This document shows positions 1-19,530 of a stretch of DNA of 20,000 nucleotides, in pieces (position 1 is the stretch's first letter; every line of letters starts with the position of its first letter). Below the pieces are notes generated by a model. That model saw only the letters and a program-made list of their open reading frames with translations. It searched no databases and was not told the DNA's origin. The stretch is from an uncultured virus (IMG/VR IMGVR_UViG_3300028384_001589) (lineage: Duplodnaviria > Heunggongvirae > Uroviricota > Caudoviricetes). Location: the IMG/VR virus record IMGVR_UViG_3300028384_001589. One strand, 5' to 3'. The translations under genes were made by a program, and so were the position numbers.

Positions 1-3000
1 TTCAGTAGCATCTGTGTCACTACTTGCACCTTTAATACCTGTGTATTGACCTTCTGCTAATGTTGGGTCAGCGGCACTTGTTACGTTCCAGCCTAATACA
101 CCACCGTTGTTCCAATCATAACTTGTGATAATACCGTACTGCCCTCTACCTTCACCTTCAACAATGGTAATAAGTTTATCCAAATAATATTCTTCATTGT
201 TTACATCTTGGTTAGCAATTTGAATTTCAGTTGCATTACCGCCCTGTGCTCTGTTGTTAGCATAGGTATAGTTGTCACCGCCTGGTGTTGATGAGTCGCC
301 TGGATCAGTAATTCTAATTTCAGTTACTGAACCGTTTCTAAATTCTGTTAATTTACCTGCGGCATTTTCACCCGAACCTGTAATTGTTACAGTACCTTGT
401 GTATAATGATTACCAGTGTTGGTATATCCTACAGCAAATAATTTATTTTCATCGTTGTAAACTTTTCCAATTTCTGCTTCTTTAGAATAGTTGTTTACTT
501 TTGCAGTAATTGGTGTTTCGTCATTGTTAAAGCCGATTGCTACAGAACCATATTCACCGTATGAGTTGTTACCATTTGTTGCACGTACTTTACCGCCTTC
601 TGTACACAGATAACCTACATAACAGTAGTATGTAAACACTGATACAAGTTCTGATAAGCCATCTGCATTACACCAGTAACCGATACCGTCTTGGATAATC
701 TGTGTAAAGTCGTTAGCAACGATAGATTTATTACCGCCGTTGTGTAGTGTACCATCAACTTTCATACCAACACACTTGTTACCAAATGTTGAAACGTTTT
801 GTACATAAGTTGATTTGGTTGTAATCCAAACAGTTTCGTCGTCTGGGCCTTCACCTGGATCAAGTGCTACGAACGCACCGCCTGTTACCCTTTTAATTAA
901 ATATTGATCTGGATCTGTAAATTCACCCTGTAGACCCGATAGTGTCATATTTCTAATACCACACCCGTTTCTTACACGGAACATATCTTGGTCATTTGTT
1001 TCTGGTGTAGGCTCAACAAATGTTGAACGTAATTCGTCACCAACAATAGCAACGTTAGCAGGTACACTGATAGGACAAATTTCCTGATAGCGGCCAGTTT
1101 TTACAAGAATAGTTGCTGGCGCTCTTGTACCTTCATCTTCTAAAATGTACTGTGTTGCATACTTAATTGTTTTAAATGGAGCAGTAGGAGTTAAACCTCT
1201 GCCTGCTGAGTTTGCATCAACACCGTCTGGTGAAACATAGTAAACATTTTCTGTTTGTTCTAAAGATTCCCATGCAAGGTCGTCATTTGCCATAACTTTG
1301 AACGAGTCACCTGGGTTACCAATTCCAACCCTTGCATGATCTGTTCCGTCATGTGTTCTAATATCACCTCTGTATTGTAATACATTATTGACACCACCTT
1401 CTGCAACAGTTACCCAGAAATTTTCCTGTGTGTACTCTATATCTAAATCTGGTCTTGATCCAGAATTAGATGCTTCGTGACGTTTGATACAACGATATAG
1501 TGTACCGTTGTATGTAACAATGTCTCCAAGGAAATATGAATTAGTTTCCGGAGACGCATTTACAATTACTGTTTCTTTCCAGTTTCCTCTAAACCTATCA
1601 CCGTCAATTAATGTTAACCATTGATTGTTACTGTAGATAGTTGTTAGTGTGCCATCGTTACCTTGATCATCTTGATACATAGCACTGTGATTGTAACAAA
1701 CAAGATAGTTTGCTTTGTATGCATCTCTTGGAACAATATACTGAACATACCTTTCGGTTGCCGCACTAAATCCTGAATCGTATGCCGCGGCATCAGCAAC
1801 CTGTACACCATCTAACCAGTATGTTACACCGTTATCTAAGTAATTGTATTGACCACCGTCATGGTGTCCATCAATTGATGTACTTAGATACAACGGATGT
1901 GTTAGGTTTGATGAATCATTCTGTAAAAATCTATATGTGTTTCCTTCGTATAAATCAATGTTCCCACCAACTGTACCATTAACATAATATTTGTTACCGT
2001 TGCCAGGATTACCTACTGTAATTGTTACATCAACAGTTGAACTTTGATCATCTGGTTCTGCACCTGTATTATCACGTAATGCAATATACAAGTAACCACC
2101 AAATCTTACAACATCACCAGTTTGGTATGATGTACCACTGTCCCAATATGATGCTTCTTCTTGTAGATCAGGATTTTGATTTATTTGGCCACCCATTCTG
2201 TAGCCTTGTGTTAGTAACTCCCAATCGCCAGTATCTTGTGTAATACCATTTACGCTCGGAATACTGTTTGTATTAATTGTTAAAGATGTATAACTGTATC
2301 CTCCATACTTAACAATATCACCAGGTTGATATGTTGCACTTTCTACCCACTGTTGTTCGTATTCGTATCCAGGCAACCAAATATCAAAGAAACTTTCTGC
2401 AAAAGTTGTTCCACTGTTGTGTCCTGTGTTACAATACCATATAGTTGGTCCGTATCTTAGAATATCACCTTTTTTGTATTTTTCTTTTTTAACAAAAATT
2501 TCAGTGCCGTCACCTGCTTCTGCTTCTAAATTACTTCTATCAGCAAGTGCATCATTCAAACGTCTGTATAATTTAAATGTATCTACTGTTACATTTCTTA
2601 CATAATAATAAGTGTTATCACTTAATCCATCTCCGTCTGTTCCAGTTGTTGTATACTGAACTAAATCACCTGTTGTTAAACCATGACTTGTTACTGTTAC
2701 TATGCCGCCTGTAATTCCTTCTGATGTAATATCTCTACTTGCTACCCAATGTCCTTTGTAATCAATGCCGTCAATTAAAATTTCCCATGCATTGTTAGGT
2801 GCTCCGGGCATATCTTCTTCAAGACCAAGTGCGTCATCATTTGCACTTAAATGACCAATTACACAACGATATATAATACCACCATAACGTACAACATCAT
2901 CTGCTACATATCTTGTTCTTGGCTTCCAATAATCTTTCCACTGATCTGATCTTGTAACAACTGTCCACTTAGTTGAATCTAATTCAAGACCTGTAATAGT

Positions 3001-3930
3001 TGTTGATGACGTGTGTTCAACTGTACAACGATAAACAATACCGCCATACTTAACAACATCACCAATTCTATAAATTACTTGAGGTAACCATTCATAGCGC
3101 CAATTTTGATCTGAAACAACTAATTTCCAATTACCAAAATCATCAATTCCAATTTCGCCTGGAGTTTCAATATTTAGATATGCACCTTTGTCTTTTGAAT
3201 CTGGTGTGCCATCAAAGTAATAAATTTTGTCTGGTGCATCTGCTGGAACTGTAAGTCTAATTTTTCTATCACTTGCTGTTGCAAACGAACTTAGGTAAAC
3301 TGACTCTGTTGTTTCAATGCCGTCAATAAAGTAAACAAGATTTGTACCAATGTCCCAATAGTCAATAAGAGGAGTATCAGGATTTACACCGTCTTCGTAT
3401 ACACTAAATCTTAGTGGATGTTCTTGTCCTCCAAAATCTACGTTTGATTGATCTGTTTGATCAAAAAGGTATGTGTGTCCTTTACGTATTGTAATAATAT
3501 TTCTTTCAGTTCCATTTAAGAAAATTGCACCAGTTGAAGTGTTAGCACGACCTGTGTCAGTAATAGACCCGCTGTCTCTATCAACTGTTACTGTAATAGT
3601 TGTTGATCCTTCCGGAACTGTATACGGATCTGCTGTATGACCTACAATAGCCGCATAGACTTGACCGCCATAGCGTACAACGTCATTTACTTTGTAATAT
3701 GTACCCGGAGTCCATTGGTCTACCCATTGTACACCGTCTGTCATTTGTGTCCACTTAGGCAGTGTTTGATTTAGATAGTCAATGTAAAAGTCTGGATCTG
3801 ATGTGTGACCATTCAAACAAACAAAGGTTTTACCACCATAACTTACAATATCATCTTTAATATATTGCTTAGAAGTCTGCCAAGCACCAGTCCATCTAAA
3901 TCGGATTCTGTCAATTTTAAATTCAGCCAT
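1..3930 (-). CDS. Very large virion fibre/structural protein (>1310 aa, 3' end outside window): about 8 CBM5/12 (ChiC-like) repeats, two cupredoxin-like inserts, then a pectin-lyase-like beta-helix region
   Basis: ATG at 3930 (MAEFKIDRIRFRWTGAW...). The frame stays open to position 1 (...GASSDTDATE), which explains its absence from the ORF track. Repeats W-x5-Y-x2-(G/N/D)D(I/V)V-x-YGG-x2-Y-x-C-x3-H, e.g. YKVNDVVRYGGQVY, YRIGDVVKYGGIVYRC. VYYVSPDG...PFKTIKYA...GDELRS motif near 1245-1025. Confidence 0.9.
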   Translation of the reverse strand, partial: MAEFKIDRIRFRWTGAWQTSKQYIKDDIVSYGGKTFVCLNGHTSDPDFYIDYLNQTLPKWTQMTDGVQWVDQWTPGTYYKVNDVVRYGGQVYAAIVGHTADPYTVPEGSTTITVTVDRDSGSITDTGRANTSTGAIFLNGTERNIITIRKGHTYLFDQTDQSNVDFGGQEHPLRFSVYEDGVNPDTPLIDYWDIGTNLVYFIDGIETTESVYLSSFATASDRKIRLTVPADAPDKIYYFDGTPDSKDKGAYLNIETPGEIGIDDFGNWKLVVSDQNWRYEWLPQVIYRIGDVVKYGGIVYRCTVEHTSSTTITGLELDSTKWTVVTRSDQWKDYWKPRTRYVADDVVRYGGIIYRCVIGHLSANDDALGLEEDMPGAPNNAWEILIDGIDYKGHWVASRDITSEGITGGIVTVTSHGLTTGDLVQYTTTGTDGDGLSDNTYYYVRNVTVDTFKLYRRLNDALADRSNLEAEAGDGTEIFVKKEKYKKGDILRYGPTIWYCNTGHNSGTTFAESFFDIWLPGYEYEQQWVESATYQPGDIVKYGGYSYTSLTINTNSIPSVNGITQDTGDWELLTQGYRMGGQINQNPDLQEEASYWDSGTSYQTGDVVRFGGYLYIALRDNTGAEPDDQSSTVDVTITVGNPGNGNKYYVNGTVGGNIDLYEGNTYRFLQNDSSNLTHPLYLSTSIDGHHDGGQYNYLDNGVTYWLDGVQVADAAAYDSGFSAATERYVQYIVPRDAYKANYLVCYNHSAMYQDDQGNDGTLTTIYSNNQWLTLIDGDRFRGNWKETVIVNASPETNSYFLGDIVTYNGTLYRCIKRHEASNSGSRPDLDIEYTQENFWVTVAEGGVNNVLQYRGDIRTHDGTDHARVGIGNPGDSFKVMANDDLAWESLEQTENVYYVSPDGVDANSAGRGLTPTAPFKTIKYATQYILEDEGTRAPATILVKTGRYQEICPISVPANVAIVGDELRSTFVEPTPETNDQDMFRVRNGCGIRNMTLSGLQGEFTDPDQYLIKRVTGGAFVALDPGEGPDDETVWITTKSTYVQNVSTFGNKCVGMKVDGTLHNGGNKSIVANDFTQIIQDGIGYWCNADGLSELVSVFTYYCYVGYLCTEGGKVRATNGNNSYGEYGSVAIGFNNDETPITAKVNNYSKEAEIGKVYNDENKLFAVGYTNTGNHYTQGTVTITGSGENAAGKLTEFRNGSVTEIRITDPGDSSTPGGDNYTYANNRAQGGNATEIQIANQDVNNEEYYLDKLITIVEGEGRGQYGIITSYDWNNGGVLGWNVTSAADPTLAEGQYTGIKGASSDTDATE

Positions 3931-15262: not shown

Positions 15263-15712
15263 TTATGCATCATCTGTGAAATCGTCGTCGTCAGTTCCTG
15301 CAAGATCGTCATCACCTGCTTCTTCAACTTGTACGCCGCCGTCTGTTAAGTCTGCATCAAAGTTCCATGCAGTTGACTTACCGTCTAATGCGTTAGTACC
15401 TGTTGCACTTGGAGCCGCTAATGTAACTTTGCGTCCTGAAATTTTAGATACGCCATAAGTTTCACCGTCGTCACCTTTTACTGAAATAGACATTTGACCT
15501 GCTGTCAAAGCCGCTGGTAAAACACCAGTTTGTAGAACACAAGTGTATTCTGTATCTGTTGCTCCAATTTCAGCAACAACAAAACGCTTTGATCCTTTTT
15601 GTCTTACAATATGACCTTCAACAACTGATGTACCGTTGTGAAAGTTAACTTTAATTTCGTTTCCTCCAGCAGTTGGTTCGCCGAAGTATCTTTTATTAAG
15701 TGGTCTTCCCAT
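15263..15712 (-). CDS. Hypothetical late protein (149 aa, MGRPLNKRYFG...), possibly an abundant virion/head protein
   Basis: Start reassigned from 15739 to the ATG at 15712, which has the SD TAGGAG. Acidic C-terminus. Has its own late promoter and downstream hairpin. Confidence 0.85.
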   Translation of the reverse strand: MGRPLNKRYFGEPTAGGNEIKVNFHNGTSVVEGHIVRQKGSKRFVVAEIGATDTEYTCVLQTGVLPAALTAGQMSISVKGDDGETYGVSKISGRKVTLAAPSATGTNALDGKSTAWNFDADLTDGGVQVEEAGDDDLAGTDDDDFTDDA

Positions 15713-15733
15713 TTGTTTTCTCCTATATAAGTA

Positions 15734-15802
15734 GTCCAATGCGGGTTCTATCCGCTACGCTGTGGGTACAGCATAAGTCCGCCTTGCGGCTCGCTATTTG
15801 AC
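15734..15802 (-). promoter_or_regulatory. Putative structured 5' leader (multi-stem junction)
   Basis: Closing GUCAAAU/AUUGGAC (one mismatch) encloses GCC-GCAA-GGC, UAUGCUGU-ACCC-ACAGCGUA and GCGG-AUAGAAC-CCGC. Confidence 0.62.
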
Positions 15803-15807
15803 ACAAG

Positions 15808-15813
15808 TATTTA
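15808..15813 (-). promoter_or_regulatory. T4-like late promoter core (ATAAATA) overlapping the upstream stop codon
   Basis: Minus strand agaTAAATActtgtgtc. The predicted +1 coincides with the start of the structured leader. Confidence 0.7.
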
Positions 15814-16230
15814 TCTAATTGTATAGAATGGTGATTTTTTCGGGGTTACAGTTAAATTGATAAAATGCCTAATAAAATCAAAACGTGTGGCAAGTAATCC
15901 AAATAATTCGGTATTCATTCCTTCGTTGATCATAGTATAACTGCTTTTACCTATATTACTATAATAATCAATGCTTATACCGTATTCAGGAAATACACCC
16001 GTAACAAACAAACAAGTATCACCCAATTCTTTGGCAGATAATCTATAAGGTTGTTTTAATGCTAAGAGTTCTTCTGCGAATGTAGTTTCAGGTAGGAAAT
16101 TTGGTTTGTCAATTTTATCTGCAAGAAGCATTACTACGTAGGATTCAATTTCAATAGGTAATTGATATCCTGTAGTCTCGGATGCCTCCTTGACAATATC
16201 ATAAAAGGCCGTTGTATATTCGTCCTTCAT
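15811..16230 (-). CDS. Hypothetical protein (139 aa), globular and apparently non-structural
   Basis: Intact ORF with motif-like blocks ESYVVMLLA, KELGDTCLFVTGVFPE and YYSNIGKSSY. No SD; TAAATA lies 5 nt before the ATG. Confidence 0.8.
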   Translation of the reverse strand: MKDEYTTAFYDIVKEASETTGYQLPIEIESYVVMLLADKIDKPNFLPETTFAEELLALKQPYRLSAKELGDTCLFVTGVFPEYGISIDYYSNIGKSSYTMINEGMNTELFGLLATRFDFIRHFINLTVTPKKSPFYTIR

Positions 16231-16235
16231 ACAAA

Positions 16236-16241
16236 TATTTA
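16236..16241 (-). promoter_or_regulatory. Late promoter core giving a probably leaderless mRNA
   Basis: Minus strand gacTAAATAtttgtATG, immediately downstream of a terminator. Confidence 0.65.
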
Positions 16242-16247
16242 GTCATT

Positions 16248-16280
16248 AAAAAAGGTTTATCCAGTCTCCCGAATAAACCT
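16248..16280 (-). terminator. Rho-independent terminator closing the candidate ncRNA
   Basis: AGGUUUAUUCGG-GAGA-CUGGAUAAACCU (12-bp stem with 2 GU pairs, GNRA loop) followed by a U-tract. Confidence 0.85.
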
Positions 16281-16507
16281 CTTTTAGGCATAAGCAAAAT
16301 AGGGAGGACTCGGTTATACCTCCAACCCCTCGCCGCAGATACCATTCTGAAACCAGGGAGCCTGTAGCCGCTCGGTAGAGCGATGTGACTCAGCGTATTT
16401 CTACTACCAAGCCTGGGTACCACCCCTTTACAGCCAAGTTCGACGCTCTGGTAAACGCCTCTTCCTTGCACTATATACATCGGACCGCTAAATCCTTTGT
16501 AACTTAT
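16248..16507 (-). ncRNA. Candidate structured non-coding RNA (about 260 nt with terminator; folded core about 16470-16294), family not recognised
   Basis: 53% GC over 16301-16480 (96/180, hand count) in an AT-rich window. Nested helices and several hairpins. Flanked by a sigma70-type promoter and an intrinsic terminator. No convincing CDS. Confidence 0.72.
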
Positions 16508-16513
16508 AATACT

Positions 16514-16542
16514 AATATAACAAATCTTTGTGAAAAAAGCAA
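16514..16542 (-). promoter_or_regulatory. Sigma70-type promoter driving the candidate ncRNA
   Basis: TTGCTT (16542-16537), a 17-nt spacer ending in TGt, then TATATT (16519-16514): an extended -10 plus -35 with optimal spacing. Confidence 0.65.
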
Positions 16543-16581
16543 TGGTTAGGTTAACCAAAATAGATGTTTTGAATAGTCAAT

Positions 16582-16610
16582 AAAAAAGGGCGACATAAAG
16601 CCGCCCTTTT
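16582..16610 (-). terminator. Rho-independent terminator of the major capsid gene (potentially bidirectional)
   Basis: AAAA-GGGCGGC-UUUAU-GUCGCCC-UUUUUU, 17 nt after the MCP stop. A T-tract is also present on the plus strand. Confidence 0.9.
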
Positions 16611-16627
16611 CGTTTTTGTATAATCTC

Positions 16628-17791
16628 TTATGAGAAAGATACGTTTGCTACAGACACACGTGCCAAGTAGTCAGCCGCATTACCAAGAGATGATGCAGTG
16701 TTGTTTAACTCTACATAACCATATCTTGTCATGAACGAAACTACTGGTTCGAATGTACCTGGATCAAGTACAACACCTGAAGACATTAGCGGAATGTATG
16801 GGCAATAGAATGCCGCCGCATCTGATTCTGATGTTCCTTTGTATCCAACAAGTACGTCTGTTGTGTCAGCCGCATAAGCGTCGACATATACTTTCATTGC
16901 ACCATTTAAAGTACCTACTAATTTAGTATTAGTTGGAGCCTCAAAAGTACCTTCAGTTGTTCTTGCGAACGCTGAAGTTGTTGCAGACTGAAGTACTGTT
17001 AAAGTGTGTGGTGATACCACAGCAAAGTTACCAGCACCACGTCTTGTACGCTGTGCAATTTTGTTAGCCGCTCTGTTAATCATAACAGCAAGTGCCGCGT
17101 GTTCGTCACCGACGAATGTTGCAGTACCTGATACAGCATTTTGATCATACTGTACGTCTGATTCAGCAGTACCAGCAAGGTTTCTTAAAGAAGCAAGAAC
17201 TTCTTGGTCGATTTCAGCAGTAATTTCTTGTGCTAAAGCCGCCATAATTTCTGCCTCAACATCGATACCTTGTTGTGCTTGAGCGTCTTGTGCAGATTCA
17301 AACGTCCAACGAGCACTTAACTTACGTGTCTTCGCTTCGACTGTTTGCTTTAAGATCTGGATTGACATACGCTTTCCTGCTGTACCTTCTAAGGTTGCAG
17401 TAGCATCTGCTTTATCCGTAGATCCGCCACCTGAGTAACCAACACCAATTTGGAATGGTGAAAGTGCCTCTTCGCCTGCTGTTACGTCATCGAATGTATC
17501 CGCATAACGTACTCTTAATGTGTGGATTTGACCCACAGGGCCTGTCATTGGCTGTACACCTACGATTTCATTCGCGATGACAGTTGGCATAACCCTTCTG
17601 ATTACCGGTAGGATAACTCTGTTTAAAGTTGCAACGTTACCTGCTGAAGTAGCCCCTGCTGTTGCTGTCTCTGCCAAATACTTTTTAGTATTTTCAAGAG
17701 TAGCAGACATCACAGACTTCTTGTTGCCTTGTAGGCCTTCAAGTAATGCGCTCTTAGTTTCCTGCCAGCGACTTTCTAATAGTTCTGACAT
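16628..17791 (-). CDS. gp23: Major capsid protein, T4 gp23-like
   Basis: Motifs LPVIRRVMPTVIANEIVGVQPMTGPVGQIHTLR, TVEAKTRKLSARWTFESAQD, YCPYIPL and FEPVVSFMTRYG. Follows protease and scaffold genes. AAGGAG SD. Confidence 0.97.
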   Translation of the reverse strand: MSELLESRWQETKSALLEGLQGNKKSVMSATLENTKKYLAETATAGATSAGNVATLNRVILPVIRRVMPTVIANEIVGVQPMTGPVGQIHTLRVRYADTFDDVTAGEEALSPFQIGVGYSGGGSTDKADATATLEGTAGKRMSIQILKQTVEAKTRKLSARWTFESAQDAQAQQGIDVEAEIMAALAQEITAEIDQEVLASLRNLAGTAESDVQYDQNAVSGTATFVGDEHAALAVMINRAANKIAQRTRRGAGNFAVVSPHTLTVLQSATTSAFARTTEGTFEAPTNTKLVGTLNGAMKVYVDAYAADTTDVLVGYKGTSESDAAAFYCPYIPLMSSGVVLDPGTFEPVVSFMTRYGYVELNNTASSLGNAADYLARVSVANVSFS

Positions 17792-17801
17792 TATTTTCTC
17801 C

Positions 17802-18902
17802 TTATTTTAATCCTGCAAGTCTTCTAATGTCTACAACATTATCAGTTGCAGAATTACTTGCGCCACTAACGTTAGTTTCTTCTTTATTGCCTGTTACTTC
17901 AGTTGCCTCGGTGAGCGTTGCCTTCTTCTTCTCTGGAGTATTACCGTCAATTACGGAAGGTAGATACTTGTCAAACTGTTTTTGAATATTGTCAGTTTGT
18001 ACAGACTCCAGTAAGTCCATCATAATCTCTTTCTGATCTTTGCTCAATGGAGCAGTTAATTCAGAAATGATTTCTTTTCTCTTAGCAGTATCTGCCGCAG
18101 ATTTAATCTCTGCGTCTTTTGATTCAACTAATTTTGCTTTTTCTTCAGCGATTGCTTTAGATTCTGCAAGTTGTTTGTCTTTTAACTCAACTACTTTCAT
18201 TAATTTTGCAGTTTCAGACTTTTCATTTAAGTATGAATGCTGATACTCATCTGCAAACGTTTCAAATAGTTTACGTCCAAAGTCATTTTTACGTGCCGCA
18301 TCAATGTCTTCCTTAAGAGCAGTAATCTCTTTAGAAAGTGTTTTAGCAACAGTTGATTCAACAACTTTAGCGCCTTTCTTAATGAAAGACTCTTTAACAG
18401 TATCTAAGTGTTTTTTCGCTTCGCGAATTAGTCGAACTTTTGTTTCTGCAAGATCTTTTTTATCTTCATGAAACTCTGCAATTTCTTTTGCTAAAGCCTC
18501 TACAACAAATTCCTCAAGTTTGCCAAATTTTTCTGACATTGCTTTTTGGTCTTCGTGTAGTTCAGAAACTTCCTTGCCGAGTTGTGCAACAACAAAGTTT
18601 TTAAGTAGGTCTGCGTTTTCACGCATTGCTACATGGTACTTTGCTCTTGCTTCTGCAAGTTTGGAACGATCGTCTGCAAACTCTGCAATCTCTTCACTTA
18701 ATTTGTCATCAAGCATTTTTTCCACGGCTTCAACCATTACAGCCTTGTCGTGTTCATACTTCTGTGCAAATTCTTCGCGAAGTTCTGCTGTGGCTTGCAT
18801 TTTGTTCTCTTGAACTTTATTGTTCCACGCTTCTTCGATGTCGGCTTTAATCTCTTCCGAAATAGCATTGTTCTCAAAGAGTGATTTCAGTGCTTCCAAC
18901 AT
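17802..18902 (-). CDS. gp22: Prohead core scaffolding protein, T4 gp22-like
   Basis: 366-aa Glu/Lys/Ala-rich coiled-coil protein located between the protease and MCP genes. AAGGAG SD. Confidence 0.85.
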   Translation of the reverse strand: MLEALKSLFENNAISEEIKADIEEAWNNKVQENKMQATAELREEFAQKYEHDKAVMVEAVEKMLDDKLSEEIAEFADDRSKLAEARAKYHVAMRENADLLKNFVVAQLGKEVSELHEDQKAMSEKFGKLEEFVVEALAKEIAEFHEDKKDLAETKVRLIREAKKHLDTVKESFIKKGAKVVESTVAKTLSKEITALKEDIDAARKNDFGRKLFETFADEYQHSYLNEKSETAKLMKVVELKDKQLAESKAIAEEKAKLVESKDAEIKSAADTAKRKEIISELTAPLSKDQKEIMMDLLESVQTDNIQKQFDKYLPSVIDGNTPEKKKATLTEATEVTGNKEETNVSGASNSATDNVVDIRRLAGLK

Positions 18903-18912
18903 CTTGTTCTCC

Positions 18913-19530
18913 TTATTTCAACCCTTGTATAATATTAACAAGTGATTCTTTCAAATACTTCTGTGCCTTTGCATCGCCTTGAACTTCGCGAGCCATATTA
19001 AATGCCTGCATACCGCCTCGGGTATTCATCAAATGCTCGTAAATTGGTGTTGGATATGCACCAGGAGCAGATGGTTGAGCAACAATATCAACTGTGATAA
19101 TTTCGAAATCACTCACATTGTTGTCCTCGTTTACGTTTCCACTACCACGTGATGAGACTCCAAGTTTAACTCCGCTTTCAAGCATTGTTTTAACAAGTTG
19201 TCCCATCGGTGTTGGTAATATTTTTAACTTTCCATAACCGTTAGGTCCATCCATCCACATTTCTTTAATCATGTGGGACACACGGTCAAGGTTAATGTTG
19301 AGTCCTTCTGGGTGATCCACTTCTCCAAGAACTGAATATCCACCGCTGATTTGATCGTTGAGAGTATTGACAGCCCTACTGATTTCATTAACAGGATACA
19401 CACGCTGGTTTGCGTTACGTACTCCGCCTTGGATACAAATACCTTTTAAATGAAGGTCTTTGCCGTCTTCAGTAGATTCCAGAACGATCTGCGCCTGGTC
19501 GAATGTCAAGTTCTCACGTAAGTTAATCAC
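18913..19530 (-). CDS. gp21: Prohead maturation protease, T4 gp21-like
   Basis: Motifs NANQRVYP, LGEVDHP (His), LGVSSRGSG (Ser) and DIVAQPSAPGAY. GTG start with GAGGA SD. Confidence 0.95.
   Translation of the reverse strand: MINLRENLTFDQAQIVLESTEDGKDLHLKGICIQGGVRNANQRVYPVNEISRAVNTLNDQISGGYSVLGEVDHPEGLNINLDRVSHMIKEMWMDGPNGYGKLKILPTPMGQLVKTMLESGVKLGVSSRGSGNVNEDNNVSDFEIITVDIVAQPSAPGAYPTPIYEHLMNTRGGMQAFNMAREVQGDAKAQKYLKESLVNIIQGLK

What the first reader, a model, noticed from the sequence alone, without database searches (positions are those of the whole stretch)
16248..16542. Stand-alone, highly structured phage ncRNA directly downstream of the major capsid gene
Seen: after the MCP terminator there is a complete transcription unit with no credible CDS: a sigma70-like promoter (TTGCTT-17-TATATT), about 180 nt at 53% GC, then an intrinsic terminator. 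By-eye fold on the minus strand: outer helix GCAAGG(16469-64)/UUUUGC(16299-94); ACCAG-AGC(16452-45)/GCU-CC-CUGGU(16361-52); CUGUA(16433-29)/UACAG(16366-62) closing a junction of three hairpins, GGGU-GGU-ACCC, GGCUUGGU-A-GUA-GAAA-UAC-GCUGAGUC (GNRA-capped) and CGCUC-UACC-GAGCG; then CAGA-AUGGUA-UCUG and GGAGG...CCUCC. Two possible tertiary pairings: loop UACC with loop GGUA (kissing), and GGUU(16327-24) with AACC(16315-12) (pseudoknot). Inference: this complexity is typical of ribozymes or protein-binding/decoy RNAs. A host-type promoter among late promoters suggests early, independent expression. It lacks the hallmarks of tRNA, tmRNA, RNase P, SRP and the riboswitches I know.
Basis: partly seen in the sequence, partly recalled or inferred. 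Interest (0 to 1): 0.85.

Follow-up and report, generated by a model that had tools for sequence, protein, structure and literature searches.

The report
Known manA RNA beside capsid gene
The flagged stretch is a real, separately transcribed folded RNA of an uncultured aquatic phage, but it belongs to the already catalogued manA RNA family, whose members were recently reported to build RNA-only cages and whose role in infection is still unknown.

Summary
On the minus strand, between the gp23 terminator and the next late gene, lies a closed unit: an extended -10 sigma70-type promoter (TTGCTT-17-TGT-TATATT), an RNA of about 260 nt (about 16507 to 16248) and a strong intrinsic terminator. It is not a new class. 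Rfam's manA model (RF01745) matches it full-length at 45.3 bits (E 6e-9 for the window). That is below the curated cut-off of 55.2, but RNAs 85-89% identical to it pass the cut-off. In related IMG/VR phages the RNA recurs downstream of gp23 on the same strand: 23 of 80 loci, and 18 of the 49 loci with at least 1 kb of downstream DNA. 35 of 36 gp23-adjacent copies are followed by a terminator. Pairing covaries strongly: 92% of cells paired against 60-64% in shuffles, and 61-63 of 68 pairs show double changes. The overlapping ORF is not conserved. The best reading is a stand-alone, early-transcribed manA-family RNA. By homology to cryo-EM work it probably self-assembles through kissing loops; its function is untested. 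The scan had already noted manA-type stand-alone RNAs on other DNA. Verdict: new member of a known kind.

The parts
16628..17791 (-). gp23-type major capsid protein gene (387 aa), upstream neighbour
   Evidence: Pfam Gp23 9.2e-98, PHROG 138 major head protein
16583..16611 (-). intrinsic terminator of gp23 (12-bp hairpin plus U-tract)
   Evidence: fold -19 kcal/mol, z -5.6; conserved in L004
16537..16542 (-). -35 element TTGCTT (degenerate; TTGACA/TTGACT in relatives)
16514..16522 (-). extended -10 element TGT-TATATT
   Evidence: TATATT in 41 of 62 promoters, TGn in 50 of 62
16248..16507 (-). predicted RNA, about 260 nt, from the inferred start (7 nt after the -10) to the terminator U-tract; ends not mapped
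   Evidence: inference from the promoter and terminator positions
16293..16490 (-). match to Rfam manA RNA (RF01745), model positions 1-192 of 192
   Evidence: 45.3 bits, cut-off 55.2, E 1.6e-10 (531 nt searched) and 6.1e-9 (20 kb)
16290..16295 (-). 3' strand GCUUAU of outer helix P0 (pairs with AUAAGU 16502-16507); not part of the Rfam model
   Evidence: all 6 pairs show double changes, 84-86% of cells paired
16502..16507 (-). 5' strand AUAAGU of outer helix P0
16435..16468 (-). P2 (CAAG/CUUG) enclosing hairpin P3 (GGCGUUU/GAGCGUC) with loop L3 ACCA
16362..16433 (-). P4 four-way junction with P5 (loop GUGGUA), P6 (GAAA tetraloop) and P7 (loop UACC)
16326..16359 (-). P8 with loop L8 AUGGUA
16303..16323 (-). 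P9 (GGAGG/CCUCC) with loop L9 UAUAACCGAGU
16471..16474 (-). pseudoknot 5' strand AUAG (pairs with CUAU 16299-16302)
   Evidence: Rfam alignment; complementary variants in relatives
16299..16302 (-). pseudoknot 3' strand CUAU
16247..16286 (-). intrinsic terminator of the RNA unit (18-bp hairpin, GAGA loop, U-tract 16248-16253)
   Evidence: -21.4 kcal/mol, z -7.3; a terminator follows 35 of 36 gp23-adjacent copies
16235..16242 (-). late-promoter-like box CTAAATAT ahead of the next gene (GATAAATAC in L004 and relatives)
   Evidence: the T4-type late consensus TATAAATA is recalled, not tested
15811..16230 (-). downstream ORF, 139 aa, no family; not part of the RNA unit
   Evidence: synonymous third-position changes against L004

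Best explanation
The element is a gene for a divergent member of the manA RNA family (Rfam RF01745). It is carried as a self-contained unit between the gp23 terminator and the next late gene of an uncultured aquatic T4-like phage, probably a jumbo phage.

Shown: a sigma70-type extended -10 promoter; a core of about 215 nt closed by an outer helix P0 that starts at the inferred transcription start; helices P1-P9 plus a pseudoknot, supported by covariation; and a strong intrinsic terminator right after P0.

Inferred: host RNA polymerase makes a discrete RNA of about 260 nt early in infection, and this RNA acts in trans rather than as a leader of the next gene.

Inferred by homology only: like the manA RNAs studied by cryo-EM, it assembles into pentamer-based homo-oligomers through loop-loop contacts. 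In this RNA these would be L5-L7 (GGUA:UACC) and L8-L9 (UGGU:ACCG), or L3-L8 (ACCA:UGGU), together with the GAAA tetraloop L6. What the particle does in the infected cell is not known. My working guess is a multivalent binding or sequestering particle rather than a metabolite sensor.
For: Family:
- The manA model matches full-length, 45.3 bits, E 1.6e-10 and 6.1e-9.
- blastn hit to Pelagibacter phage Mosig, 75% identity, E 2e-24. That RNA scores 64 bits, above the cut-off.
- RNAs 85-89.5% identical to the window's score 55.5 and 56.4 bits, and more distant ones 79-80 bits.
- A near relative of the RNA (L098, 227 bits to my model) sits before a cytidylyltransferase/mannose-6-phosphate isomerase gene. 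Others sit before Hsp20. These are the classical manA contexts (Weinberg 2010 passages).

Structure:
- RNAalifold on 6 sequences recovers P0-P9.
- On 24 distinct RNAs 91.8% of cells pair, against 60.1% shuffled and 33-44% slid; 63 of 68 pairs show double changes.
- On 65 distinct RNAs 92.0% pair against 63.8%, with 61 of 68 pairs. Both alignments were fitted to the model.

Stand-alone unit:
- 23 of 80 gp23 loci carry the RNA downstream of gp23 on the same strand. That is 18 of the 49 loci with at least 1 kb downstream.
- A promoter is present in 62 of 69 distinct upstream regions.
- A terminator follows 35 of 36 gp23-adjacent copies, against 10 of 30 copies elsewhere.
- 10 relatives go straight from gp23 to the late promoter and the freshwater-2 leader, so the unit is an insertion.
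- In 2 relatives a tRNA-Gly gene starts flush at the RNA's 3' end.
- There is no cognate antiterminator signal.

Not coding: substitutions are flat over codon positions, indels are 1 nt, and all 5 homologues have at least 2 stops in every frame.

Loops: L8-L9 complementarity is kept through about 9 different sequence pairs (0 of 500 permutations reach the observed score). L5-L7 is kept through GGU:ACC and AGU:ACU types (0 of 500).

Cryo-EM preprint 10.64898/2026.07.01.735769 (passages and section 8 read): manA RNAs form decamers and a 60-mer through L5-L7', L8-L9' or L3-L8' kissing loops and an L6 GNRA contact.

Presence in RNA libraries: contigs of 2 of 4 laid runs (two studies) cover 16290-16458 and 16300-16427. 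One is identical over 100 nt.
Against: - The window's own score is below Rfam's curated cut-off (45.3 against 55.2) and the default Rfam run did not list it.
- No transcript ends are mapped. The RNA-library data are contigs, which show neither strand, ends nor level, and may contain DNA.
- The window's -35 element is poor (TTGCTT).
- The same RNA family also occurs without a terminator directly ahead of genes (Mosig rubrerythrin, gp32, peroxiredoxin). That fits a leader role there.
- Covariation cannot tell intermolecular from intramolecular loop contacts.
- L3 has only one complementary type, and it fits L5 as well as L8.
- In 3 close relatives L7 is UCCC and the L5-L7 contact shrinks to 2 bp.
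- The sequences of the cryo-EM constructs were not available to me (bioRxiv supplements closed), so I cannot say which structural subgroup this RNA belongs to.
- The preprint shows assembly in vitro at high RNA and Mg concentrations, not in cells.
Confidence: 0.8

Rival explanations
1. Cis-regulatory leader (riboswitch-type), as Rfam and Weinberg 2010 class manA. The RNA senses a ligand, and the hairpin at 16247-16286 is its expression platform, setting read-through into the 139-aa ORF.
For: Promoter, aptamer-like fold, terminator and gene is the standard layout of a transcriptional riboswitch. Rfam types the family as Cis-reg. Copies elsewhere lie directly before genes without a terminator: 20 of 30 non-gp23 copies. 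In Mosig the start codon comes about 25 nt after the RNA.
Against: In relatives the unit is followed by a late-promoter-like box and a different leader RNA (freshwater-2) with its own gene. The 139-aa ORF is absent from most of them. 10 relatives have the same downstream gene without any manA unit. Terminator sequences differ between relatives, and cognate pairs are no more complementary to the RNA's 3' part than non-cognate pairs (-6.28 against -5.83 kcal/mol, 77 of 1000 permutations as low; a crude test). P0 closes the fold before the terminator. Two relatives replace the terminator with a flush tRNA gene.
Confidence: 0.12
2. A new RNA class unrelated to any catalogued family, for example a ribozyme.
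For: No match at Rfam's gathering thresholds. An extra outer helix P0 is not in the manA model.
Against: Full-length manA match with E 6e-9. There is a continuous chain of homologues that pass the cut-off. The helices, the pseudoknot and the conserved stretches are the same.
Confidence: 0.02
3. A 3' extension or processing/stability element of the gp23 late mRNA.
For: It lies directly downstream of the most highly expressed late gene, on the same strand.
Against: A strong terminator (-19 kcal/mol) and a conserved promoter lie between gp23 and the RNA. The same RNA occurs far from gp23 in 31 of 74 loci with enough upstream DNA.
Confidence: 0.03
4. A small protein gene (ORF 16199-16558, or from ATG 16480).
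For: In the window the frame is open for 119 codons.
Against: No Pfam or PHROG hit. Substitutions are not biased to third positions, indels are single nucleotides, and every homologue has at least 2 stops in every frame.
Confidence: 0.01

Closest known systems
manA RNA motif, Rfam RF01745 (Weinberg et al. 2010, PMC2864571; passages read)
   Same: Full-length match to the model. Same helices, GNRA-capped P6, GGUGGU-type L5 and ACC-type L7, and the pseudoknot that the 2010 paper marked with a question mark. Found in marine T4-like phages. Near relatives of this RNA sit before mannose-6-phosphate isomerase-type and Hsp20 genes.
   Different: Scores 45.3 bits, under the cut-off of 55.2. Has an extra closing helix P0. 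Here it is closed off by its own terminator and is not in a 5' UTR. The carrier is not a cyanophage: its capsid protein is nearest (about 70%) to those of cultured jumbo phages of Vibrio, Sinorhizobium and Pseudomonas, and those phages show no manA match.
Unannotated manA RNA of Pelagibacter phage Mosig EXVC030M (MT647606.1, 108164-108371)
   Same: 75% identical over 184 nt. Same promoter type TTGACA-17-TATATT. 64 bits to RF01745.
   Different: In Mosig there is no terminator. The RNA runs straight into a ribosome-binding site and a rubrerythrin gene next to gp32, in the replication module and not beside gp23.
Cryo-EM manA assemblies (Ren et al. 2026, bioRxiv 10.64898/2026.07.01.735769; passages and section 8 read, supplements closed)
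   Same: Same family. The window RNA has the loop complementarities named there (L5-L7; L8-L9 or L3-L8) and a GNRA L6.
   Different: Assembly of this particular RNA is untested. The construct sequences were not visible, so no direct comparison was possible. The preprint gives no biological role.

Membership tests
manA RNA (Rfam RF01745) | Significant full-length match to the family covariance model | tested here: met
   Model positions 1-192 of 192, 45.3 bits, E 1.6e-10 (531 nt searched) and 6.1e-9 (20 kb)
manA RNA (Rfam RF01745) | Score at or above Rfam's curated gathering cut-off (55.2 bits). This is a curation threshold, not a structural feature. | tested here: not met
   45.3 bits. Homologues 85-89.5% identical score 55.5 and 56.4, Mosig 64, and more distant relatives 79-80.
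manA RNA (Rfam RF01745) | Consensus architecture: P1 hairpin, P2/P3, four-way junction P4-P7, P8, P9 | tested here: met
   Independent RNAalifold consensus agrees with the Rfam structure line. 61-63 of 68 pairs show double changes.
manA RNA (Rfam RF01745) | Pseudoknot between the stretch after P1 and the stretch after P9 | tested here: met
   AUAG:CUAU in the window. Relatives keep it as GAUAG:CUAUC, UAUUAG:CUAAUA, CUUAG:CUAAG, GGGU:ACCC and GUGUAG:CUACAC. At least 4 bp in 62 of 63 RNAs.
manA RNA (Rfam RF01745) | Position in the 5' UTR of a protein gene (basis of the Cis-reg type) | tested here: not met
   A terminator at 16247-16286 lies between the RNA and the next ORF. 35 of 36 gp23-adjacent copies have one. 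The feature is met in other contexts of the same subfamily.
Self-assembling manA oligomers (cryo-EM preprint) | Complementary loops L5-L7 and L8-L9 (or L3-L8), and a GNRA L6 | tested here: met
   Window: GGUA:UACC, UGGU:ACCG, ACCA:UGGU, GAAA. L8-L9 and L5-L7 covary across relatives. L3 shows no covariation.
Self-assembling manA oligomers (cryo-EM preprint) | Formation of pentamer-based decamers or 60-mers | not testable with these tools
   Needs in-vitro assembly and SEC, native gels or cryo-EM
Riboswitch | Ligand-dependent alternative pairing between aptamer and expression platform | tested here: inconclusive
   Cognate terminator arms are no more complementary to the RNA's 3' part than non-cognate arms. 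The test is crude, and three terminators were mis-called inside P8.

The most novel reading that the evidence does not exclude
The manA unit is a self-contained, movable 'RNA moron': promoter, RNA, terminator. Its product, made early by host polymerase, assembles in the infected cell into RNA-only decamers or cages that act in trans, for example as a multivalent decoy or a small compartment. On this reading the Rfam label 'cis-regulatory' would be wrong for the family in general. The sister cassette in a 95%-identical phage (L004) keeps the outer helices but swaps the P4-P7 domain that carries the L5/L7 interface. That would then be a natural exchange of assembly modules.
Probability: 0.2. Interest if true: 0.8.

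Novelty: new member of a known kind. Interest (0 to 1): 0.4.

Why it matters
manA has been an orphan riboswitch candidate since 2010. A 2026 preprint reports that its members build RNA-only cages in vitro, without a biological context. This locus and its relatives supply such a context. In a large clade of uncultured aquatic T4-like phages the RNA is a closed unit driven by a host-type promoter: 35 of 36 copies beside gp23 end in a terminator and 2 end at a tRNA gene. In other phages the same RNA sits directly before genes. This argues that at least this branch acts in trans. It also gives concrete constructs, with natural loop variants, for testing assembly and function. For the scan itself, the result shows that the flagged 'novel' RNA is explained by a sub-threshold Rfam hit.

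Tried and rejected
- Rfam at gathering thresholds listed only freshwater-2. ARAGORN found no tRNA or tmRNA in the window.
- The consensus scan found no terminator and no excess of promoters, although both hairpins fold strongly.
- The window's own assembly is not held. The nearest record G001 has neither the RNA nor the region.
- A MAFFT-only alignment of 17 RNAs gave RNAalifold only 20 pairs, so a model-guided alignment was needed.
- The core alone is not unusually stable (z -1.65).
- The three cultured jumbo phages with the nearest capsid proteins have no match to RF01745 or to my model. The same tool did find the Mosig copy.
- The 139-aa and 149-aa downstream ORFs have no Pfam, PHROG or GenBank-phage match.
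- RNA runs: no contig of the four laid runs covers 15842-16267 or 16481-16551. Two runs (X2, X5) have none on the RNA. Holes in contig data prove nothing, contig depths cannot rank parts, and Illumina adapter sequence abuts the contigs at 16458 and near 16277 in X3, so no transcript end can be read from them.
- Antiterminator test: no signal.
- L3-L8 contact: only one complementary type (ACCA:UGGU), and L3-L5 scores equally, so L3's partner is open. In the smaller set the control loop pairs L3-L5, L5-L9 and L7-L8 also beat most permutations (1, 6 and 22 of 1000). The permutation test is therefore not specific by itself.
- L054 (14.9 bits) is a doubtful member and was dropped from the loop tests, together with the cut L006 and L037. 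RNAs under 200 nt were dropped.
- Earlier notes of this scan near this place: none.

Full report
**What is there**

All long ORFs of the window are on the minus strand. They form a T4-type structural module:
- prohead protease at 18913-19530;
- a scaffold-like gene at 17802-18902;
- the gp23 major capsid protein at 16628-17791 (Pfam Gp23, 9e-98);
- baseplate and fibre genes further down.

Reading the minus strand from gp23 towards the next ORF (ATG 16230), the 397-nt gap holds the following:
- a gp23 terminator hairpin at 16583-16611 (-19 kcal/mol);
- a GC-rich stretch, 0.53 against 0.30-0.44 around it;
- an 18-bp hairpin with a GAGA loop and a U-tract at 16247-16286 (-21.4 kcal/mol, z -7.3).

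The generic scan tool found no terminator. It picked another promoter-like site 8 nt downstream and found no more such sites than in shuffles. The promoter call therefore rests on homology, described below.

**What it is**

Rfam at curated thresholds reported only a freshwater-2 leader at 15710-15793. With E-value reporting, the manA model RF01745 matches 16490-16293 on the minus strand over all 192 model positions. The score is 45.3 bits against a cut-off of 55.2, with E 1.6e-10 for the 531 nt searched and 6.1e-9 for the whole window.

The only GenBank phage with similar DNA is Pelagibacter phage Mosig (75% over 184 nt, E 2e-24). That unannotated stretch scores 64 bits to manA, above the cut-off.

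Among 50 IMG/VR records chosen by capsid-protein similarity, 15 have a manA match at E <= 0.01 and 4 are over the cut-off. RNAs 85% and 89.5% identical to the window's score 55.5 and 56.4 bits. The window RNA is therefore a slightly sub-threshold member of a continuous homologous series.

manA was described in 2010 as a riboswitch candidate of marine metagenomes, T4-like cyanophages and two gamma-proteobacteria. It was reported in potential 5' UTRs of mannose/fructose, nucleotide, ibpA and photosynthesis genes (PMC2864571, passages). Rfam corrected its structure in release 14.3 (PMC7779021, passages).

**Structure**

RNAalifold on the window RNA and five close homologues, without any reference to Rfam, gives an outer helix P0 and P1-P9 in the manA arrangement. 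I built a covariance model from that alignment and ran two searches with it.
- Over the window and 84 loci it found 28 matches. On the 24 distinct RNAs, 91.8% of cells pair, against 60.1% in shuffles and 33-44% with slid partners. 63 of 68 pairs show changes on both sides.
- Over a second set of 80 loci, fetched with a short sequence pattern, it found 71 matches. On the 65 distinct RNAs, 92.0% of cells pair against 63.8%, and 61 of 68 pairs show double changes. P2 is invariant in this set because the search pattern fixed it.

Both alignments were fitted to the model, which favours the structure. The slid-partner control and the number of pair types still argue strongly for it.

P0 (AUAAGU 16507-16502 with GCUUAU 16295-16290) is not in the Rfam model. 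It begins at the position expected for the transcription start.

The manA pseudoknot is AUAG:CUAU here. Relatives keep it through at least five other complementary versions.

The outer helix GCAAGG/UUUUGC, the ACCAG-AGC/GCU-CC-CUGGU helix and the GGUU/AACC pseudoknot do not.

**Not coding**

Compared with five homologues, substitutions fall evenly on the three codon positions of ORF 16199-16558 (10/14/9, 7/10/12, 13/10/11, 18/16/13, 20/29/17). Indels are single nucleotides. Every homologue has at least two stops in every frame.

**A closed unit, and an insertion**

In all 15 relatives examined first, the RNA has the same surroundings:
- it is preceded by TTGAC(A/T), a spacer of 16-17 nt and TATATT or TATAGT, about 7 nt before the P0 strand;
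- it is followed within a few nucleotides by a strong hairpin with a U-tract;
- after that come a GATAAATAC box and the freshwater-2 leader.

In the wider sample, 62 of 69 distinct upstream regions carry such a promoter, and 50 of those have a TGn extension.

Of the 74 loci with at least 1.4 kb upstream, 43 have gp23 upstream on the same strand. Of the 36 gp23-adjacent loci with enough flanking DNA, 35 have a terminator after the RNA. Of the 30 loci without gp23 nearby, 10 have one. The terminator finder is my own heuristic; an earlier, stricter version missed several.

Among the 80 gp23 loci, 23 carry the RNA downstream of gp23. That is 18 of the 49 loci with at least 1 kb of downstream DNA, and three more show its start cut off by the contig end. 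Ten go directly from gp23 to the late box and freshwater-2 within about 110-150 nt. Others carry small protein genes behind sigma70-type promoters at the same place. The gp23-downstream gap is thus a variable slot, and the manA unit is one of its occupants.

Two particular relatives are informative.
- L165, with a 95% identical capsid protein, has the same arrangement as the window, including the 139-aa ORF.
- L004, also 95% identical, keeps the gp23 terminator, the promoter and the ORF but holds a different insert of about 230 nt. That insert has no Rfam match. It matches my model only weakly (13.4 bits): the outer helices are shared and the P4-P7 domain is replaced.

In two relatives a tRNA-Gly(UCC) gene begins flush at the 3' end of the RNA, in place of a terminator.

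**Other contexts of the same subfamily**

Away from gp23, the RNA lies directly ahead of several kinds of genes:
- gp32;
- rubrerythrin;
- a peroxiredoxin;
- Hsp20;
- a cytidylyltransferase/mannose-6-phosphate isomerase gene, behind a terminator and a late box.

These are the classical manA contexts. They keep the cis-regulatory reading alive for those loci.

For the gp23 context I looked for the hallmark of a transcriptional riboswitch, namely complementarity between the RNA's 3' part and its own terminator arm. Cognate pairs are no better than non-cognate ones (-6.28 against -5.83 kcal/mol; 77 of 1000 permutations as low). The test is crude.

**How it probably works**

Shown: the promoter, the fold and the terminator, and their conservation.

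Inferred: host RNA polymerase transcribes a discrete RNA of about 260 nt early in infection, and the RNA acts in trans.

A 2026 preprint (10.64898/2026.07.01.735769; passages and section 8 read, supplements closed) reports the following for manA RNAs:
- they form pentamer-based decamers, octamers and a 60-subunit icosahedral cage in vitro;
- the assemblies are held by intermolecular kissing loops, L5-L7' and L8-L9' in one group;
- in another group they are held by L5-L7', L3-L8' and an L6 GNRA-receptor contact.

Mapping the loop numbers onto the Rfam structure is my inference. It fits the GNRA at L6.

The window RNA has L5 GUGGUA, L7 UACC, L8 AUGGUA, L9 UAUAACCGAGU, L3 ACCA and L6 GAAA. This allows GGUA:UACC, UGGU:ACCG or ACCA:UGGU.

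Results of the loop tests on 63 distinct RNAs:

| Loop pair | Own score vs permuted | Permutations reaching own score | Note |
|---|---|---|---|
| L8-L9 | 9.30 vs 7.61 | 0 of 500 | about nine different complementary sequence pairs |
| L5-L7 | 9.21 vs 8.50 | 0 of 500 | GGU:ACC and AGU:ACU types |
| L3-L8 | 7.56 vs 6.67 | 0 of 500 | one type only; fits L5 as well as L8 |
| Control pairs L7-L8, L3-L9, L3-L7, L6-L9, L6-L7 | no signal | 195-499 of 500 | |
| Control pair L5-L9 | borderline | 38 of 500 | |

Covariation cannot say whether the contacts are within or between molecules. Self-assembly of this RNA, and any role of such particles in the cell, remain untested.

**Expression**

One search for runs and one laying were allowed. 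RNA-library contigs of two of the four laid runs (two studies) cover 16290-16458 and 16300-16427. One contig is identical to the window over 100 nt. This shows that the sequence is present in RNA libraries. It shows neither strand, ends nor level.

**Carrier**

The capsid protein is 78-98% identical to those of many IMG/VR fragments. Among cultured phages it is nearest, at about 70%, to jumbo phages of Vibrio, Sinorhizobium and Pseudomonas. CheckV rates related contigs of 160-176 kb as 44-49% complete, which suggests genomes near 360 kb. The three cultured jumbo phages have no manA match. The host is unknown.

**Verdict**

The element is nonetheless a member of a known family.

Earlier notes of this scan had already described manA-type RNAs standing alone on other DNA (e1-6017216, e1-5915231; parts of those notes later fell).

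I searched the library for 'manA RNA' with motif and phage, and for RF01745. I found no paper describing the gp23-adjacent, terminator-closed arrangement. These two searches do not prove that it is not in print.

Noticed in passing
window 15710-15793 (-): freshwater-2 RNA (RF02980), 68.1 bits, over its cut-off of 49.9. It ends in the start codon of a 149-aa ORF of no known family and is preceded by a GATAAATAC late-promoter-like box. In relatives this leader and gene follow gp23 directly or follow the manA unit.
   Followed up: partly
L004:3795-4045 (+): A phage with a 95% identical capsid protein keeps the gp23 terminator, the promoter and the downstream ORF but has a different insert of about 230 nt in place of manA. 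It has no Rfam hit, matches the manA-derived model only weakly (13.4 bits) with the central P4-P7 domain replaced, and is not unusually stable (z -1.31). It is unique among the loci fetched up.
   Followed up: partly
L032:3776-4073 and L081:3768-4063 (+): In two relatives the manA RNA downstream of gp23 is followed flush by a tRNA-Gly(UCC) gene instead of a terminator. RNase P cleavage would then define its 3' end.
   Followed up: partly
L105, L116, L138, L140, L098 (loci): The same manA subfamily lies ahead of gp32, rubrerythrin, Hsp20, a peroxiredoxin and a cytidylyltransferase/mannose-6-phosphate isomerase gene in other phage contigs. Ahead of gp32 the RNA is followed at once by a TATAAATA box and an A/C-rich leader.
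   Followed up: partly
L010, L064, L077, L079, L082 (downstream of gp23): The gap after gp23 is a variable slot. In these relatives it holds small protein genes behind sigma70-type promoters. In 10 others it holds nothing.
   Followed up: partly
L110/L171, L138, L152, L162 (200-400 nt after the manA RNA): A further conserved, structured-looking non-coding stretch lies between the manA RNA and the next gene (Hsp20 in L138 and L152). It was not analysed.
   Followed up: no
window 16230-16242 (-): The late-promoter-like box ends only 5 nt before the ATG of the 139-aa ORF, and no Shine-Dalgarno sequence is visible. This suggests a leaderless or very short-leader late mRNA.
   Followed up: no
window 16628-17791 (-) and related records: The capsid protein's nearest cultured relatives are jumbo phages (Vibrio phage 2.275.O at 71%, Sinorhizobium phage Phosso, Pseudomonas phage PA5oct at 69%). 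CheckV estimates for related contigs imply genomes of about 360 kb.
   Followed up: partly
window 1-3930 (-): A fibre-like protein of more than 1310 aa (open at the window's end) with seven CBM_5_12 carbohydrate-binding repeats.
   Followed up: no
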